Positions 18,025 to 42,066 of a stretch of 64,000 nucleotides of DNA are shown piece after piece. A program made the translations under genes and the position numbers. Location: positions 53,222-117,221 of the forward strand of contig CALRQP020000008.1 of NCBI GenBank assembly GCA_943370355.1. The letters run 5' to 3'. The DNA is from Sphingomonas paucimobilis (GTDB lineage: Bacteria > Pseudomonadota > Alphaproteobacteria > Sphingomonadales > Sphingomonadaceae). The notes beneath the pieces were generated by a model that saw only the letters and a list, made by a program, of their open reading frames with translations, was not told the DNA's origin and searched no databases. The first letter of the stretch is position 1; every line of letters begins with the position of its first letter.

Positions 18025-18936
18025 CTAGTGCGAGCCTCCTTCGGCTGCGGGAGGCGGAAAGCTGCCGACCCGCTCAGGATAGCGCGGACCCGAAGCAGAC
18101 GCCGGCACGTCCACGCTCGCGAATTCTCGACTATCGGCAGCGTCCAAGTAGCTGCGCGCCAGCCGGGCAACATCGGCCGTGTGCTGCGCGATAAATCCAT
18201 GTCCCCAACCGGGCACTTCGAGGATTATCGAGCGAGCCGCCACGCCGTTCGCCCGCCGCGTCTGCTGATCGAGGTCGTCGCCGGTGTTGAGGATCAGAAC
18301 CGGCTGCGTGATCTCCGCAAGGTCTGCCGCAAGGTCATAGTTGAACGCAGCATGGTGCCCCCACCATTCGATATTGCCTGCCAGCAAGGCATCCCGGAAG
18401 GCGTCGTTGACCTCCGACAGCGACACACCAGGCCGCAAATGGTGATAAACGAACCCCATCCACCGCCGCAGGACATGGCTGCCATCCGCCTCCGGTTCGC
18501 GGTGCCGGTAATGTTCACGAAACTCCCGCCGCTCGTCATCCGGAAAGATCGGTGCCGACACCATCAACAGCCGACGCACCCGCTCTGACGCTAGCTGCGC
18601 GATGGCGACCGCTATCATCGATCCGGTATGATAGCCCATCAGGTCGATGGGCCCCGCAATCCCCAAAGTGCCAAGACCGGCCAGCAGGTCTCTCGCATAA
18701 TCCGCGATCGCTGGCGGTCCGGACGGCGGGTCGGACATGCCAAAGCCGGGCGTATCGAAGGCGACCGCAATCCGGTCCTCCCCCATCTCGGCCAGCAAGG
18801 GCTCGAAAATGCGGCCAGTCATCGGACTCATGTGAATGCACATGAGCGGCGTTGCGATCGGTGTCTGCGGCCGCGCAATGCGCACATGCATCTGCCCGTG
18901 CGGACCATCGACATAGCTGCGAATCACCTGGGTCAT
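18025..18936 (-). CDS. alpha/beta hydrolase fold protein
   Basis: ORF 18025..19077. Blocks FDTPGFGMSD and MGYHTGSMIAV, with a C-terminal GWGHGF region. ATG 18936 is preferred and 19077 is possible. The catalytic nucleophile is not obvious. Confidence 0.75.
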   Translation of the reverse strand: MTQVIRSYVDGPHGQMHVRIARPQTPIATPLMCIHMSPMTGRIFEPLLAEMGEDRIAVAFDTPGFGMSDPPSGPPAIADYARDLLAGLGTLGIAGPIDLMGYHTGSMIAVAIAQLASERVRRLLMVSAPIFPDDERREFREHYRHREPEADGSHVLRRWMGFVYHHLRPGVSLSEVNDAFRDALLAGNIEWWGHHAAFNYDLAADLAEITQPVLILNTGDDLDQQTRRANGVAARSIILEVPGWGHGFIAQHTADVARLARSYLDAADSREFASVDVPASASGPRYPERVGSFPPPAAEGGSH

Positions 18937-19154
18937 ACCGGCAGCATGGCACGTGCAGGTCCAATCCTCGCCGCGCACTTCGAATCTGTCCACGAAATGG
19001 CCAACCGATCCGGTGACTAGCGAACGAATGGCCGCGGCTTGGTAGGATTTGCGCCATGAGTTGGCGGATTTCACCACAGTCGGCGAAACGTGCTCGGCAC
19101 CGAGTCCAACATTTATCCCTAAAATTGAAGGGTCTTAGGCCTGCGAATGTAAAT

Positions 19155-19169
19155 TGGCACGGCCCTTGC
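19155..19169 (+). promoter_or_regulatory. sigma54 (RpoN) -24/-12 promoter
   Basis: TGGCAC-GGCCC-TTGC matches TGGCAC-N5-TTGC exactly. It is intergenic, in an AT-rich context, 56 nt upstream of the mini-ORF ATG and correctly oriented. Confidence 0.5.
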
Positions 19170-19224
19170 GATTGTATCGGCATAGGACGGATGGTCCGCC
19201 CGAAAACGCAAAGGAAACCAAGTC

Positions 19225-19341
19225 ATGTTCTCGACCTCCAGCTTCAGCCGCAACCTCGTCGCCGCTTTCGGTTCGTTCGTGATCGCAGCGACCTGCCTGC
19301 TTGCCGCAACCGCTCCGGCGATGACCAACCTCGTCGCCTGA
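19225..19341 (+). CDS. 38-aa hydrophobic mini-protein (not in the ORF track, which starts at 60 aa)
   Basis: ATG 19225 is preceded by AAGGAAA about 8 nt upstream. Translation: MFSTSSFSRNLVAAFGSFVIAATCLLAATAPAMTNLVA, stop TGA 19339..19341. One predicted TM helix. Confidence 0.35.
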   Translation: MFSTSSFSRNLVAAFGSFVIAATCLLAATAPAMTNLVA

Positions 19342-19373
19342 ACGCGCCACATCCTCCTTCAAGGACAACGACA

Positions 19374-19580
19374 ATGACCGACCGCACCTTCCGCCTCGAC
19401 AAGCGCTCCGCCAAGATCCTCGGCGTCTGCGCCGGGATCGCCAATTACACCGGCGTCGACGTGCTCTGGGTCCGTGCTGCGGCTGTCCTCGCCACGCTGC
19501 TTGGCTCGGGCTTTCCCGCCCTTGCCTATATCGTGATCGCCCTGCTCGCTGAAGCCGAGGGCCAGCCGCTCGCCGACTGA
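19374..19580 (+). CDS. PspC-domain membrane protein
   Basis: 68 aa from ATG 19374 within ORF 19056..19580. LDKRSAKILGVCAGIANYTGVDVLWVRAAAVL is a typical PspC domain. Confidence 0.8.
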   Translation: MTDRTFRLDKRSAKILGVCAGIANYTGVDVLWVRAAAVLATLLGSGFPALAYIVIALLAEAEGQPLAD

Positions 19581-19590
19581 GCGGCGGCCC

Positions 19591-20733
19591 CTATGATCTG
19601 AGCAGCTTCGGCAGGATCGCATTCAGGAGCGGCAGGCCCCGCGCGGTAACGCGTAAGCCTGCCGCGCTTCGTTCGATCAGGCCGACGCCCGCCAGATGCG
19701 CCGCCGCTGCCTCATCGATGAGGTCGGCCAGCGCCACTCCCGTCCGGCGCTCGAACAGATCGCCATCGATCCCAGCCGTGAGCCGCAATCCCATCAGCAA
19801 CGCCTCGTCCGCCCGAGTAGCGCTATCCAGCTTGGTCTCGGTGTCGATGCCGTGGCGGCCCGCCGCAACCGCGTCCAGCCAGCCCTCCGGCTTCATCTGG
19901 CGCACTGTTGCCACACCCGCACGCCGTCCATGTGCACCCGGCCCAACACCGACATAATCGCCGTATGTCCAATAGCGCAGATTGTGCCGGCTCTCGCTGC
20001 CCGGTCGCGCGTGGTTGGAAATCTCATAGGCTGGCAATCCCGCTGCAGCGGTCATCGCCTGCGTCAGCTCCCACAGGTCGGCGGCGAGGTCCTCGCCGGG
20101 TATGACGAGGTCTCCAGACGCATGCAGTGTAGCGAACCGCGTCTTCGGTTCGATCGTGAGCTGATAGAGCGAGAGGTGATCCGTCCCGAACTTCAAAGCC
20201 CGCGACAGCTCGGCTTCCCAGCCGCTGAGTGTCTGCCCCTCACGCGCATAGATGAGATCGAAGCTGACCCGGTCGAAGATCGATTGCGCGACGTCGAGCG
20301 CGGCGAGACCCATAGCGACGTCGTGCGGACGGCCGAGCCGTTTCAACGCCGCATCGTCCAGTGCCTGCAGGCCGAGCGAAACGCGATTCACCCCGGCGGC
20401 GGCGAACCCCGCGAATCGTGATGATTCCACGCTTGAAGGATTGGCCTCCAGCGTGATTTCGAGACCCGGTTCGACGGGCCACAACCGAGCCACTTCGTCG
20501 ATGACCGCGCCGGTCGTTGCTGGGTCCATCAACGACGGCGTGCCGCCACCGAAAAATATGCTGGTGACCCGGTGATCGGGCGTAACGCTCGCCTCATGCC
20601 GCAAGTCGGCGAGCAACGCCTCGCGCCAGCCCGTCTCGCCGATCTTCGCACGGACATGGCTGTTGAAGTCGCAATAGGGGCATTTGGTGACGCAGAACGG
20701 CCAGTGCACATAGACAGCGAGCGGTTCGCGCAC
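19591..20733 (-). CDS. hemW: radical SAM heme chaperone HemW (HemN-like)
   Basis: ORF 19591..20928. Radical SAM motif WPFCVTKCPYCDF. A GTG at 20733 lies one nt after the rdgB stop and gives 380 aa. Confidence 0.85.
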   Translation of the reverse strand: MREPLAVYVHWPFCVTKCPYCDFNSHVRAKIGETGWREALLADLRHEASVTPDHRVTSIFFGGGTPSLMDPATTGAVIDEVARLWPVEPGLEITLEANPSSVESSRFAGFAAAGVNRVSLGLQALDDAALKRLGRPHDVAMGLAALDVAQSIFDRVSFDLIYAREGQTLSGWEAELSRALKFGTDHLSLYQLTIEPKTRFATLHASGDLVIPGEDLAADLWELTQAMTAAAGLPAYEISNHARPGSESRHNLRYWTYGDYVGVGPGAHGRRAGVATVRQMKPEGWLDAVAAGRHGIDTETKLDSATRADEALLMGLRLTAGIDGDLFERRTGVALADLIDEAAAAHLAGVGLIERSAAGLRVTARGLPLLNAILPKLLRS

Positions 20734-20734
20734 C

Positions 20735-21337
20735 TCAGAAACTGACAGCGACCAGCTTCGCGAAGGCCAAGGCCCGGTGGCTGATCGCATGCTTTTTGTC
20801 GGGGTCCATCTCGCCAAAGGTCTGGTCGTAACCCACCGGCATGAACACCGGATCATAGCCGAAGCCCCGGTCGCCACGCGGTGGCCAGACCAGCGTCCCG
20901 GCAACGCGCCCCTCGAACACATCGGCATGCCCGTCGGGCCAAGTTAGCGCCAGCGTGCAGACGAACTGCGCATCCCGCACGGCACCCTCGGGCAGCGCCG
21001 CCTCGACCTTGTGCATCGCCATCATCCAGTCGCGCGCGCCGTCGGGCCGCTCCGCCCAATTGGCAGTATAAACCCCCGGCTGCCCACCGAGCGCCGCGAC
21101 TTCCAGCCCGCTGTCGTCGCTGAGCGCCACCATGCCCGACGCGCGCGACGCCGCATGCGCTTTCAACAGCGCATTCCCCGCGAAACTGTCCTCGGTTTCC
21201 TCGGGCTCAGGCAAGCCGAGTTCGCCCGCCGCAACGGGTTCCATGCCATAGGGTCCGAGCAACGCCGCGATCTCGCGCACCTTGCCGTGATTATGGGTCG
21301 CCAGGACCAGCGGCCCGGGCATCAGCCTGCGGCTCAC
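20735..21337 (-). CDS. rdgB: dITP/XTP pyrophosphatase (RdgB/HAM1)
   Basis: 200 aa with [14 protein letters not shown] and FGYDPVF blocks. Confidence 0.9.
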
Positions 21338-39615: not shown

Positions 39616-41169
39616 CTAAGCCGCGCGCGAACCTTCCAGCAATGCCGAACGGCGGCGTTGCACGCTCGACCCGAGCCCCAGCGACTCGCGGTACTTGGCG
39701 ACCGTACGGCGGGCGATGTCGAAGCCTTCGCCGCGCAGCACGTCGACGAGCTTGTCGTCGCTGAGGATCGTCGAAGCCGTCTCCGCCCCGATCAGCGCGC
39801 GGATGCGCGATTTGACCGCCTCTGACGAGACCGCATCCTCGTCGCCCGCGCCCTGAATCGCGCTGGTGAAGAAATATTTGAGTTCATAGAGCCCGCGCTC
39901 GCACGACAGATATTTGTTCGAGGTCACCCGGCTGACCGTCGATTCGTGCATCGAGATCGCATCGGCGATGGCGCGCAGGTTGAGCGGCTTCATGCGCGAC
40001 ACCCCCTGCTCGAAAAAGCCCTGCTGCTGGCGGACGATCTCGGTCGCGACGCGCACGATGGTGCGGGCGCGCTGGTCGAGCGCCTTCGCGAGCCAGTTCG
40101 CCGATTGCAGGCAGTCCGACAGGTAATTTTTCGCCTCCCGCCCCGAGGCGCGTGCCGTGAGTTCGGCATAATAGCTGCGGTTGACGAGCAGGCGCGGCAG
40201 CGTCGCCGAATTGAGTTCAACTGCCCAGCCGCCGACGGGCAGCCGCGCCACGAAAATATCGGGAACGACCGACTGGGTCCGCTCCCCGCCATAAACGAGA
40301 CCCGGCTTCGGATTATAGGCGCGCAGCTCGCGCACCATGTCGGTCAGATCCTCCTGATCGACGCCGCAGATCCGGCGGAGCGCCGCCATGTCGCCGCGCG
40401 CCAGCACTTCGAGATTGGCGAGCAGTTTGGCCATCGCGGGGTCATAGCGGTCGGCCTCGCGCGCCTGCAGCGCCAGGCATTCGCCGAGCGACCGCGCACC
40501 GACGCCGGTCGGCTCGAACCCTTGGATGACCGCAAGCACACGTTCAACATGCGCGCTGTCGGTGCCGAGCCGGAGCGCCACCTCGGCGATCGGGCCGGTC
40601 AGATAACCGGATTCGTCGATGAGATCGATCAGATGGCGCGCGATGATGAGGTCGGCCCCGTCCAGCGCGAGCTGCGCCTGATCGATAAGCACCTCGCAGA
40701 GCGAGCGCTCCTCCGACAGCATCGATTCGAAACCATCGGACGGCGCCTCGCCGCCGCCGGCGCTCGCGCCATTGAGACCCAGCCCGCCGTCGAGCCCCTG
40801 CCCGCCGCCATCGACGATGCTGTCCGAGCCACTGTCGTGATGGAAGGTCTCGGCGTTGAAGTCGCAGTCGAGCGGCGAGTCGGCCACCGCGTCACCTGTC
40901 GCCATGAGCTGGTCAGCAGTCGCGGGGTCGGGCGTGTCGAAATCCACGTCGAAATCCGCGTCGCCGCCGTCGCCGTCGGACTCGGCAACCGGCTCAAGCG
41001 GCCCGTCCTCGGACGCGGCTTCCAGCAGCGGGTTCTTCTCGATCTCGGCGGCCATGAAGGCCTCGATCTCGAGGTTGGTCAGCGTCAGCAGCTTGATCGC
41101 CTGCTGCAGCTGGGGGGTCATCACCAGCTGCTGTGTCTGCCGCAGATCGAGGCGTGGCCCCAGGCCCAT
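39616..41169 (-). CDS. rpoN: RNA polymerase sigma-54 factor
   Basis: 517 aa. N-terminal LRQTQQLVMTPQLQQAIKLL, an acidic region, and the C-terminal RpoN box ARRTVAKYRE. Confidence 0.95.
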   Translation of the reverse strand: MGLGPRLDLRQTQQLVMTPQLQQAIKLLTLTNLEIEAFMAAEIEKNPLLEAASEDGPLEPVAESDGDGGDADFDVDFDTPDPATADQLMATGDAVADSPLDCDFNAETFHHDSGSDSIVDGGGQGLDGGLGLNGASAGGGEAPSDGFESMLSEERSLCEVLIDQAQLALDGADLIIARHLIDLIDESGYLTGPIAEVALRLGTDSAHVERVLAVIQGFEPTGVGARSLGECLALQAREADRYDPAMAKLLANLEVLARGDMAALRRICGVDQEDLTDMVRELRAYNPKPGLVYGGERTQSVVPDIFVARLPVGGWAVELNSATLPRLLVNRSYYAELTARASGREAKNYLSDCLQSANWLAKALDQRARTIVRVATEIVRQQQGFFEQGVSRMKPLNLRAIADAISMHESTVSRVTSNKYLSCERGLYELKYFFTSAIQGAGDEDAVSSEAVKSRIRALIGAETASTILSDDKLVDVLRGEGFDIARRTVAKYRESLGLGSSVQRRRSALLEGSRAA

Positions 41170-41171
41170 GG

Positions 41172-41930
41172 CTAGAGACTGAAGCTTTCGCCGAGATAGA
41201 CGCGGCGCACGTCTTCGTTGGCGACGAGGTCCTCGGGCGTGCCCTCGAACAGCACCCGGCCATCATAGATGATGCAGGCGCGATCGACGATGTCGAGCGT
41301 CTCGCGGACATTATGGTCGGTAATCAGCACGCCGATGTCGCGGTCCTTCAAATGCCGGACGAGGTCGCGAATGTCGGAGATCGAGATCGGGTCGATGCCG
41401 GCAAAGGGCTCGTCGAGCAGCATGATCGACGGCGTCGCGGCCAGCGCCCGCGCGATCTCGCAACGCCGCCGCTCACCGCCCGAAAGTGCCATCGCCGGCG
41501 CGGCGCGCAGGCGGGCGATCGAGAATTCGTCCAGCAACTGCTCAAGACGGGCCGCGCGCGCATCGGCATCGGACTCAACGACCTCAAGCACCGCCATGAT
41601 ATTCTGCTCGACAGTCAGACCGCGGAAAATCGATGTCTCCTGCGGCAGATAGCCGAGGCCGAGGGCCGCGCGCCGGTACATCGGCAGGCCGGTGACGTCC
41701 TGCCCGTCGAGCATGATGCGGCCCTGGTCGGGCATCGCGAGGCCCATGATCGAATAGAAGCAGGTGGTCTTCCCCGCGCCGTTCGGGCCGAGCAGCCCGA
41801 CGACTTCGCCGCGATCGACCGACAGCGACACGTCGCGCAGCACGACACGCTTGTCGTAGCGCTTGCCGATCGACACGACGGCCAGGCCATTGTCGGCCCC
41901 CGTCGCGCCCGCGGCGCGCTTGCCCGTCAT
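41172..41930 (-). CDS. lptB: LPS export ABC transporter ATP-binding protein
   Basis: ORF 41172..42011, ATG at 41930. Walker A GPNGAGKTT, signature LSGGERRR. Located next to rpoN as usual. Confidence 0.95.
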   Translation of the reverse strand: MTGKRAAGATGADNGLAVVSIGKRYDKRVVLRDVSLSVDRGEVVGLLGPNGAGKTTCFYSIMGLAMPDQGRIMLDGQDVTGLPMYRRAALGLGYLPQETSIFRGLTVEQNIMAVLEVVESDADARAARLEQLLDEFSIARLRAAPAMALSGGERRRCEIARALAATPSIMLLDEPFAGIDPISISDIRDLVRHLKDRDIGVLITDHNVRETLDIVDRACIIYDGRVLFEGTPEDLVANEDVRRVYLGESFSL

Positions 41931-42066
41931 CAGCTCTGCATCCGCCACGGTCACCTCAACGCCTCGCCAGCACGGCACTCCGGACCGGTTGGCGCGGTTC
42001 GTGCATATCAAGCGAGAGATTACCGCCCTGGCAATGGACGCGGCAAGCGAAACCGCGCGGCGCTAC

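What the first reader, a model, noticed from the sequence alone, without database searches (positions are those of the whole stretch)
19100..19580. Consensus sigma54 promoter driving a 38-codon hydrophobic mini-ORF and a PspC-domain gene
TTGGCACGGCCCTTGCG at 19154..19170 matches the sigma54 -24/-12 consensus TGGCAC-N5-TTGC at all ten fixed positions. As a rough estimate, such a 10-nt pattern is expected only about 0.1 times by chance in both strands of 64 kb, assuming equal base use. It lies in the most AT-rich intergenic stretch of the window, correctly oriented, 56 nt upstream of an unannotated ORF. That ORF has a good RBS (AAGGAAA) and encodes MFSTSSFSRNLVAAFGSFVIAATCLLAATAPAMTNLVA (19225..19341). 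A 68-aa PspC-domain protein follows 33 nt later (19374..19580). In enterobacteria the phage-shock (psp) operon is the classic sigma54/PspF-dependent envelope-stress unit, and rpoN itself is in this window (39616..41169). No bEBP activator or pspA/pspB is adjacent. This may therefore be a minimal, differently wired sigma54 envelope-stress module.
Basis: partly seen in the sequence, partly recalled or inferred. Interest (0 to 1): 0.6.

Follow-up and report, generated by a model that had tools for sequence, protein, structure and literature searches.

The report
PspF-regulon satellite with new mini-protein
The sigma54 promoter, the 38-codon ORF and the short PspC gene are real and conserved across sphingomonads; they most likely form an outlying unit of the phage-shock (PspF) regulon, and its first gene belongs to a small membrane-protein family that has no curated family model.

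Summary
TGGCACGGCCCTTGC (19155-19169) is the only exact match in the window. It is followed by a 38-aa ORF (19225-19341) and a 68-aa PspC-domain ORF (19374-19580).

The promoter match alone is weak evidence (about 0.14 expected per window). Comparative evidence makes the case.
- The order promoter, mini-ORF, short PspC recurs in 28 genomes (27 genera) of the same GTDB family (Sphingomonadaceae).
- In the loci examined, the TGGCAC-N5-NTGC element always lies 66-88 nt before the first mini-ORF.
- A 36-nt dyad upstream site sits about 100 nt before the promoter; in this window it is at 19054-19089.

The genome carries a canonical pspF-pspABC locus on another contig. There the same upstream site, a sigma54 promoter and a paralogous mini-ORF precede pspA. 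Two more units with this site lie on other contigs.

The best reading is a PspF/sigma54-dependent satellite operon, analogous to E. coli pspG, that makes two small inner-membrane proteins.

The mini-ORF is under purifying selection. It has no Pfam or NCBIfam model, is mis-named in databases, and was found only in this bacterial family. What it does biochemically is unknown.

The parts
19054..19089 (+). Upstream activator site (putative PspF enhancer): CCATGAGTTGGCGGATTTCACCACAGTCGGCGAAAC, a dyad of the TTGG-N10-CCAA type, starting 101 nt before the T of TGGCAC
   Evidence: A motif search over 32 promoter regions found CCAAnnnnTTGGtGaAATTTCCC at fixed distances from the T of TGGCAC, mostly -97 to -102 and in pspA-linked loci -108 to -120. 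A 36-nt matrix trained only on 19 sites from other genera ranks this site 10th of 6.5 million genome positions (14.6 bits). It lies at -101, in the expected orientation.
19155..19169 (+). Sigma54 promoter: TGGCACGGCCCTTGC, with -24 GG at 19156-19157 and -12 GC at 19168-19169. The inferred start of transcription is near 19180.
   Evidence: It is the only exact match in the window. TGGCAC[G/A]-N4-NTGC lies 66-88 nt before the first mini-ORF in about 30 loci from other genera. No sigma70-like site was found in 18900-19800. The transcription start is inferred, not measured.
19211..19217 (+). Ribosome-binding site AAGGAAA of the mini-ORF
   Evidence: Read directly from the sequence. AAAGGAAACCAAG is identical in the two same-genus orthologues, although the surrounding leader is only 72-81% identical.
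19225..19341 (+). Mini-ORF of 38 aa: a short polar N-terminus, a hydrophobic stretch of about 22 residues, an invariant Pro in the motif A-x-x-P-A, and a 6-residue tail. Predicted to be a single-pass, N-in small membrane protein or a signal-peptide-like peptide.
   Evidence: Codon differences to same-genus orthologues are 14 synonymous to 3 non-synonymous, 9 to 2 and 14 to 5. A profile of the family finds copies across the bacterial family and 210 protein clusters in public data. There is no Pfam or NCBIfam model. Two paralogues in the same genome also sit behind sigma54 promoters.
19374..19580 (+). Short PspC-domain protein of 68 aa. It has only the N-terminal PspC domain and lacks the C-terminal half of operon-encoded PspC. 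Its own ribosome-binding site AAGGA is at 19361-19365.
   Evidence: It matches Pfam PspC at 3.1e-16. It scores 60.8 bits on TIGR02978, below the cut-off of 104, and covers profile positions 2-61 of 121. In a tree, 17 of 18 short PspCs lie on one side of a branch (support 86/90) against the long PspCs. It ends 10 nt before the convergent radical-SAM gene at 19591-20928.
39616..41169 (-). rpoN (sigma54, 517 aa), downstream of an lptB-like ABC ATPase gene (41172-42011, minus strand)
   Evidence: It scores 687 bits on NF004596 and 398 bits on TIGR02395, both above their cut-offs. The ORF is listed.

Best explanation
The region is a two-gene operon, mini-ORF then short PspC. It is transcribed from a sigma54 promoter that is activated from an enhancer about 100 nt upstream by PspF, and PspF is encoded on another contig next to pspABC. 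The unit is therefore a satellite of the phage-shock regulon. Under inner-membrane or proton-motive-force stress, PspA would release PspF. PspF would then bind the dyad site at 19054-19089, contact sigma54-RNA polymerase held at 19155-19169, and switch on both genes together with pspABC and two further satellite units. The products are two small inner-membrane proteins: a 38-aa single-pass, signal-peptide-like protein and a 68-aa protein consisting only of the PspC membrane domain.

Shown in silico:
- the promoter, the enhancer and their spacing are conserved;
- the same site lies before pspA;
- the mini-ORF is under purifying selection;
- the unit is missing wherever the Psp system is missing.

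Inferred:
- that PspF is the binding protein;
- that stress induces the unit;
- the membrane topology of the two proteins;
- that the two proteins act together as accessory sensor or effector parts of the Psp response.
For: (1) Promoter and mini-ORF. TGGCAC[G/A]-N4-NTGC lies 66-88 nt before the first mini-ORF in about 30 loci from different genera. It also does so in named Sphingomonas species.

(2) Enhancer. A shared dyad motif lies at phased distances of -98, -108/-109 and -119/-120. A matrix trained on other genera ranks the following sites in this genome: pspA 1st (38 bits), contig C6 2nd, contig C35 3rd, and the window 10th of 6.5 million positions. Each lies before a sigma54 element.

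(3) Activator. PspF scores above the equivalog cut-off. It has no N-terminal regulatory domain, and it has GAFTGA and a Trp at the position of E. coli W56 (the sequence is). In 11 of 11 canonical loci the motif lies in the pspF-pspA intergenic region.

(4) Architecture. The order promoter, mini-ORF (one or two copies), short PspC was found in 17 examined loci. Cross-reading searches gives 28 genomes in 27 genera where the unit is unlinked to pspF.

(5) Co-loss. Five PspF-less genomes that are 97-100% complete have no PspA, no PspC domain and no mini-ORF.

(6) Translation. Synonymous changes outnumber non-synonymous ones 14 to 3, and the ribosome-binding site is conserved.

(7) Precedents. E. 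coli pspG is an unlinked PspF/sigma54 target encoding a small membrane protein (PMC2763126, PMC3068692). In Zymomonas the first cistron behind the equivalent promoter is co-induced with pspABC (PMC8645129, PMC8237431; locus).
Against: The window's enhancer is a weak copy (14.6 bits against 38 for pspA), and 5 of the 9 higher-scoring genome positions are not at the four sigma54 promoters.

The exact promoter pattern is not enriched genome-wide: 10 were found and about 7 are expected.

The binding of PspF to the motif rests on position and co-occurrence only.

Related genomes are not independent, so the counts overstate the support.

The short PspC lacks the C-terminal part that, in Yersinia, contacts PspA (recalled from the literature, not tested here). 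Its role in signalling is therefore unclear.
Confidence: 0.72

Rival explanations
1. The sigma54 promoter is real, but another enhancer-binding protein of this genome drives it (NtrC, NtrX, a FlbD-like protein, the PEP-CTERM-box regulator or an unnamed response-regulator type). The unit would then answer to a signal other than membrane stress.
For: Six sigma54 activators are encoded. The window's upstream site scores only 14.6 bits. No binding data exist.
Against: The same motif at the same distance lies in the pspF-pspA intergenic region of 11 of 11 canonical loci, and is the top-scoring site of this genome there. Satellites were never seen without the Psp system. The downstream gene is itself a Psp-family protein.
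Confidence: 0.1
2. The mini-ORF is not a functional protein. It is a leader peptide or leader RNA whose translation merely tunes expression of the downstream gene by attenuation or translational coupling.
For: It is always the first cistron behind the promoter. In 9 of 11 pspA-linked loci a strong GC hairpin, sometimes with a T run, follows its stop codon.
Against: The amino-acid sequence is conserved against a background of synonymous change. The family keeps an invariant Pro and a TM-length hydrophobic core across genera. It occurs as tandem copies, each with its own ribosome-binding site, and once fused to a UrcA domain. In the satellites there is no hairpin between the two genes, and the leader folds no better than shuffles (z = +1.1).
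Confidence: 0.12
3. The promoter match is a chance or non-productive sigma54 site, and the genes are transcribed from an unrecognised sigma70-type or ECF-type promoter.
For: The pattern alone is expected 0.14 times per window and is not enriched in the genome. Non-productive sigma54 sites are known in E. coli (PMC4591121).
Against: The element and its spacing to the ORF and to the upstream dyad are conserved in about 30 genera, while the flanking sequence diverges. No sigma70-like site is present in the region.
Confidence: 0.04

Closest known systems
E. coli / Yersinia pspG (an unlinked member of the PspF regulon)
   Same: It is a gene outside the psp operon with its own sigma54 promoter and a PspF-dependent enhancer. 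It encodes a small inner-membrane protein that is co-induced with pspA (PMC2763126, PMC3068692).
   Different: There is no sequence relationship. The mini-ORF and the short PspC give no PspG or PspD match, and the genome has neither family. Here the satellite has two genes, and one of them is a PspC paralogue.
Canonical pspF-pspABC system (E. coli type)
   Same: This genome has a divergent pspF lacking a regulatory domain, a sigma54 promoter, pspA, pspB and pspC. The window's unit shares the promoter type and the upstream site with it.
   Different: In sphingomonads a mini-ORF is inserted between the promoter and pspA. The broad PSP survey that was searched by keyword does not mention this (PMC11237479). 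The window's PspC is the N-terminal domain only.
Zymomonas mobilis ZMO1062 (annotated 'hypothetical' or 'putative PspD')
   Same: It is the first cistron between pspF and pspA, behind TGGCACGAGGGATGC. It starts with a signal-peptide-like segment and is co-induced with pspABC in RNA-seq (PMC8645129, PMC8237431, PMC3495753).
   Different: It is a 172-aa protein with a TonB_C domain and is not a member of the mini-ORF family (score -0.5). It is a positional analogue only.
UrcA family (TIGR04433)
   Same: One relative (locus L054) has a mini-ORF-like N-terminus joined to a UrcA domain. A UrcA gene on contig C35 of this genome carries the same enhancer and a sigma54 promoter.
   Different: The window's mini-protein has no UrcA domain. 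The resemblance is limited to the signal-anchor segment.

Membership tests
Sigma54-dependent promoter | GG at -24 and GC at -12 with exact spacing (TGGCAC-N5-TTGC) | tested here: met
   There is an exact match at 19155-19169.
Sigma54-dependent promoter | Conservation of the element and its position in orthologous loci | tested here: met
   The element lies 66-88 nt before the first mini-ORF in about 30 loci.
Sigma54-dependent promoter | An enhancer site for an AAA+ activator about 80-150 nt upstream, and rpoN in the genome | tested here: met
   A dyad site lies at -101. rpoN is present in the window.
Sigma54-dependent promoter | A transcription start about 12 nt after the GC, and dependence on rpoN | not testable with these tools
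PspF regulon | A PspF orthologue present (AAA+ domain and HTH, no regulatory domain) | tested here: met
   TIGR02974 scores 479.7 bits against a cut-off of 443.55. The Sigma54_activat domain starts at residue 7, and HTH_8 is present.
PspF regulon | The same upstream site as the pspA promoter | tested here: met
   A matrix trained on other genera ranks the pspA site 1st and the window's site 10th in the genome. Both lie at phased distances from the promoter.
PspF regulon | PspF binding and PspF-dependent induction by membrane stress | not testable with these tools
   This needs a footprint or gel-shift assay and mutants.
PspC (equivalog TIGR02978) | A full-length match above the curated cut-off | tested here: not met
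   The score is 60.8 bits against a cut-off of 104, and only profile positions 2-61 of 121 are covered.
PspC domain (PF04024) | A domain match above the gathering score | tested here: met
   The score is 59.4 bits against a cut-off of 25.
PspG / PspD | A match to PF09583 or PF09584 | tested here: not met
   The mini-ORF family gave no hit at E up to 1, nor the short PspC at E up to 0.1. Neither family was found in the genome.
Transcription-attenuation leader peptide | A terminator or antiterminator structure between the leader ORF and the regulated gene | tested here: not met
   There is no hairpin in the 32-nt spacer. The leader's fold has z = +1.1. Such a hairpin does exist in pspA-linked paralogues.
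Cleavable Sec signal peptide | n-h-c regions with small residues at -3 and -1 before a mature part | tested here: inconclusive
   A-P-A precedes a 6-residue tail, and pspA-linked paralogues have P-A-x-A followed by 10-20 residues. However, the hydrophobic core is of TM length (about 22 residues), and no signal-peptide predictor or experiment was available.

The most novel reading that the evidence does not exclude
The mini-proteins may be a new class of Psp component: free-standing signal-anchor peptides. Each is made from the first cistron of every PspF-controlled promoter in sphingomonads, including the one before pspA. Their membrane insertion or processing would depend on the state of the membrane (proton-motive force, or Sec/YidC load). 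Together with a PspC-domain partner they would report that state back to the PspA-PspF switch, or they would seal or stabilise the stressed membrane directly. The same N-terminal module can be fused to periplasmic domains such as UrcA, which fits an N-in, C-out orientation.
Probability: 0.15. Interest if true: 0.75.

Novelty: new variant of a known kind. Interest (0 to 1): 0.55.

Why it matters
The phage-shock response is a model for enhancer-dependent transcription and for sensing of membrane stress, but it has been dissected almost only in enterobacteria.

This analysis predicts a complete PspF regulon for a sphingomonad: four promoters that share one enhancer motif. It also shows that a small-protein family without any curated model is the most constant companion of PspF-dependent promoters across one large bacterial family. 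It occupies the first position of the pspA operon itself.

This gives a short list of direct, cheap experiments in tractable sphingomonads, including Zymomonas relatives where psp genes matter for solvent tolerance. It also corrects database names such as 'recombination protein F' and 'enoyl-CoA hydratase' that have been attached to these 40-residue proteins.

Tried and rejected
It worked with a 48-aa paralogue placed first.
- The search for related loci with the short PspC mostly returned operon-encoded pspC genes of named Novosphingobium, Sphingorhabdus and Sphingomonas species. No mini-ORF lay directly before those genes. Four did show the mini-ORF before pspA.
- Rfam: nothing relevant in 18900-19700.
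- The 5' leader has no unusual structure.
- The terminator-like hit on the minus strand at 19239-19213 lies across the ribosome-binding site and start codon, at the rate expected by chance, and was dismissed.
- The minus-strand ORFs over the region (77 and 79 aa) have no support.
- The idea that the five tandem ORFs after pspC carry the PspC C-terminal domain was rejected: BLASTP found no alignment. There is only a weak similarity to PspB.
- The idea that Zymomonas ZMO1062 is a family member was tested and rejected.
- In a sample of 149 other families of the same class, the profile gave only three weak hits, all inside long open frames and taken as spurious.
- Literature searches for a sphingomonad PspF regulon or this small protein found nothing.

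Full report
**1. What is in the window**

TTGGCACGGCCCTTGCG lies at 19154-19170. TGGCAC-N5-TTGC occurs once in the 64 kb, on the plus strand at 19155-19169. Shuffles give a mean of 0.14 matches, and 12 of 100 shuffles give at least one.

The downstream features are as follows.
- AAGGAAA lies at 19211-19217.
- A 38-codon ORF lies at 19225-19341.
- After a 32-nt spacer with its own AAGGA, a 68-codon ORF lies at 19374-19580. It matches the Pfam PspC domain at 3.1e-16.
- The unit ends 10 nt before a convergent radical-SAM (HemN_C) gene.
- Upstream lies a divergent alpha/beta-hydrolase gene. Its Pfam domain begins near residue 77-87 of the longest frame. Its true start is therefore probably the ATG at about 18936, which leaves about 290 nt of intergenic DNA.
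- No sigma70-type site is predicted in 18900-19800.
- rpoN is in the window at 39616-41169, on the minus strand.
- The stretch is AT-rich, but it ranks third to fifth in the window, not first.

On its own the promoter match proves little. The genome holds ten exact matches, and about seven are expected by extrapolating.

**2. The genome has a complete Psp system elsewhere**

A search of the assembly for sigma54-activator domains found six true activators. One, on contig C1, is a 359-aa protein. Its AAA+ domain starts at residue 7, and it ends in a Fis-type HTH. It scores 479.7 bits on the PspF equivalog model, whose cut-off is 443.55. The other five are an NtrC, an NtrX, a FlbD-like protein, a PEP-CTERM-box regulator and one unnamed response-regulator type.

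Divergent from pspF lie, in this order:
- a sigma54-like element, TTGGCACGGCTCATGC;
- a 55-codon ORF;
- pspA, pspB and a 126-aa pspC;
- five tandem small ORFs.

The 55-aa product, MFALFSNESLKRSTIGGLGATLFGLTCLLAATAPATANA..., is a paralogue of the window's mini-protein; the two share TCLLAATAPA.

A third copy (48 aa) sits on contig C6, 72 nt after TTGGCACGCCTCCTGC. The inference of a differently wired module does not follow.

**3. The unit is conserved across a bacterial family**

DNA and profile searches in relatives gave the following.
- The window's unit recurs in the same genus, with the promoter 67-70 nt before the ORF.
- A profile of the mini-proteins finds copies throughout the same GTDB family.
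- In about 30 loci examined, the first mini-ORF always has TGGCAC[G/A]-N4-NTGC 66-88 nt before its start, and nearly always a Shine-Dalgarno motif.

Two architectures dominate.
- Architecture A: pspF divergent from enhancer, promoter, mini-ORF (48-56 aa), pspA, pspB, pspC. Found in 11 loci.
- Architecture B, the window's type: enhancer, promoter, one or two mini-ORFs (38-44 aa), then a short PspC of 59-78 aa. Found in 17 loci.

Cross-reading the coordinates gives 28 genomes in 27 genera with architecture B unlinked to pspF. At least 18 genomes have the mini-ORF next to pspF.

Fifty-three of 81 sampled genomes have two or more PspC-domain genes. Named members include Sphingomonas, Novosphingobium, Erythrobacter, Qipengyuania and Pontixanthobacter. 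In 149 other families of the class, only three weak hits appeared, all inside long open frames.

A tree of the PspC domains puts 17 of 18 short PspCs on one side of a branch (support 86/90). They are therefore mostly one old paralogue lineage rather than repeated truncations.

**4. A shared enhancer links the unit to PspF**

A motif search on 32 promoter regions found CCAAnnnnTTGGtGaAATTTCCC(AA), a TTGG-N10-CCAA dyad. It lies at fixed distances from the T of TGGCAC: -98 in most satellites, and -108/-109 or -119/-120 in pspA-linked loci. These steps are about one helical turn apart.

To avoid circularity, a 36-nt matrix was trained on 19 sites from other genera only. It was then scanned over all 6.5 million positions of this genome.
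- The pspA site ranks first (38.0 bits).
- The contig C6 site ranks second.
- A site on contig C35 ranks third.
- The window's site (19054-19089) ranks tenth (14.6 bits). It lies at -101 in the correct orientation.

The C35 site precedes TGGCACGACTAATGC and a UrcA-family gene. This gives a predicted regulon of four promoters.

The motif lies in the pspF-pspA intergenic region of every canonical locus. That is where PspF's own sites lie in E. coli (established knowledge of the family). PspF is therefore the most economical candidate for the binding protein.

Five PspF-less genomes of 97-100% completeness, from five genera, have no PspA, no PspC domain and no significant mini-ORF. Related genomes are not independent, so this result is consistent with the explanation rather than proof of it.

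**5. The mini-ORF is a selected coding sequence without a curated family**

Between same-genus orthologues, the codon differences are 14 synonymous to 3 non-synonymous, 9 to 2 and 14 to 5, concentrated at third positions. The spacer after the ORF, by contrast, is only 25-47% identical.

Across 37 sequences the family keeps four features:
- a short polar N-terminus, often with an Arg;
- a hydrophobic core of about 22 residues;
- an invariant Pro in A-x-x-P-A;
- a short tail.

Satellite-type tails end in hydrophobic residues (for example GVMA, NLVA). The pspA-linked type has P-A-x-A followed by 10-20 residues rich in Ala, Thr, Pro and Ser.

One relative fuses this N-terminus to a UrcA domain (30 bits). 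This fits an N-in, C-out signal-anchor or signal peptide.

No Pfam or NCBIfam model matches. Public records call these proteins hypothetical, or mis-name them 'recombination protein F' or 'enoyl-CoA hydratase'. The window's exact sequence is already present as a called gene in public protein collections.

The satellites show no attenuator-like structure. Nine of 11 pspA-linked copies are followed by a strong GC hairpin.

**6. Comparison with what is known**

The regulatory logic matches E. coli pspG. That gene is unlinked to the psp operon, has its own sigma54 promoter, depends on PspF and encodes a small inner-membrane protein (PMC2763126, PMC3068692). There is no homology to PspG or PspD, and neither is in the genome.

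The 68-aa protein is a PspC-domain protein but not a PspC equivalog. It scores 60.8 bits against a cut-off of 104 and covers only the N-terminal half.

A broad survey of PSP systems lists duplicated PspB and other variants. In the passages found by keyword search, it does not mention a small first cistron or such satellites (PMC11237479).

In Zymomonas, genome G050 was identified by an exact match to a published ZMO1062 primer. There, the first cistron behind the equivalent promoter and enhancer is a 172-aa exported TonB_C-domain protein. It is not a family member. It is co-induced with pspABC under xylose and temperature stress (PMC8645129, PMC8237431; see also PMC3495753). This is the only experimental support found for stress-induced transcription from this type of promoter in a sphingomonad.

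**7. Verdict**

It is wrong about the wiring.

The most likely mechanism is PspF acting from the 19054-19089 site on sigma54-RNA polymerase at 19155-19169, to co-express two small membrane proteins with the rest of the Psp regulon (confidence about 0.7). The biochemical role of the mini-protein and of the truncated PspC is open.

The finding is a new variant of a known kind of system, and it contains a protein family without a curated model.

I could not test whether it is related.

Noticed in passing
G000 contig C1, locus L011 3217-3290 (outside the window); also L015, L022, L025, L051, L057, L067, L069, L058: In 9 of 11 pspA-linked loci a 10-12 bp GC-rich hairpin, sometimes followed by a T run, lies between the mini-ORF stop and pspA. 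It may be an attenuator or partial terminator that sets the ratio of mini-protein to PspABC.
   Followed up: partly
Loci L017, L045, L048, L053, L070, L067 and others, -28 to -55 from the -24 element: A near-perfect palindrome AAATGGCGGAATTCCGCCATTT sits between the enhancer and the sigma54 element of satellite promoters in many other genera, but not in this window. It may bind a second regulator or a bending protein.
   Followed up: no
G000 contig C35:20265-20700 (outside the window): A fourth unit carries the same enhancer motif (19.8 bits) and TGGCACGACTAATGC. It drives a UrcA-family secreted protein (TIGR04433, 7.5e-21).
   Followed up: partly
G000 contig C6:44625-43800, minus strand (outside the window): A third mini-ORF paralogue (48 aa) lies behind TTGGCACGCCTCCTGC, with the enhancer in inverted orientation. 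It is followed by an ORF of at least 135 aa (the extracted sequence ends before its stop), with no significant Pfam match, that is conserved only in the same genus.
   Followed up: partly
G000 contig C1, locus L011 4618-6141 (outside the window): Five tandem ORFs of 81-103 aa, each with a TM segment and a coiled coil, directly follow pspC. They are weakly similar to the N-terminus of PspB (E = 0.003 for the single comparison) and have no Pfam family.
   Followed up: partly
window 41172-42011 (-) and 39616-41169 (-): An lptB-like ABC ATPase gene lies directly upstream of rpoN on the minus strand, the usual lptB-rpoN arrangement.
   Followed up: no
Public protein records (P0003, P0031, P0049, P0097, P0098): Members of the mini-protein family, 39-47 aa long, carry the names 'recombination protein F' or 'enoyl-CoA hydratase' in several Erythrobacter-group genomes. 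These are evidently propagated mis-annotations.
   Followed up: no
Locus L112 (G050:C1:291645-294664): A published Zymomonas ZMO1062 qPCR primer matches this 2.1-Mb genome exactly. ZMO1062 is a 172-aa signal-peptide plus TonB_C protein, 65 nt after TGGCACGAGGGATGC, between pspF and pspA. The literature calls it 'putative PspD', without homology support.
   Followed up: yes
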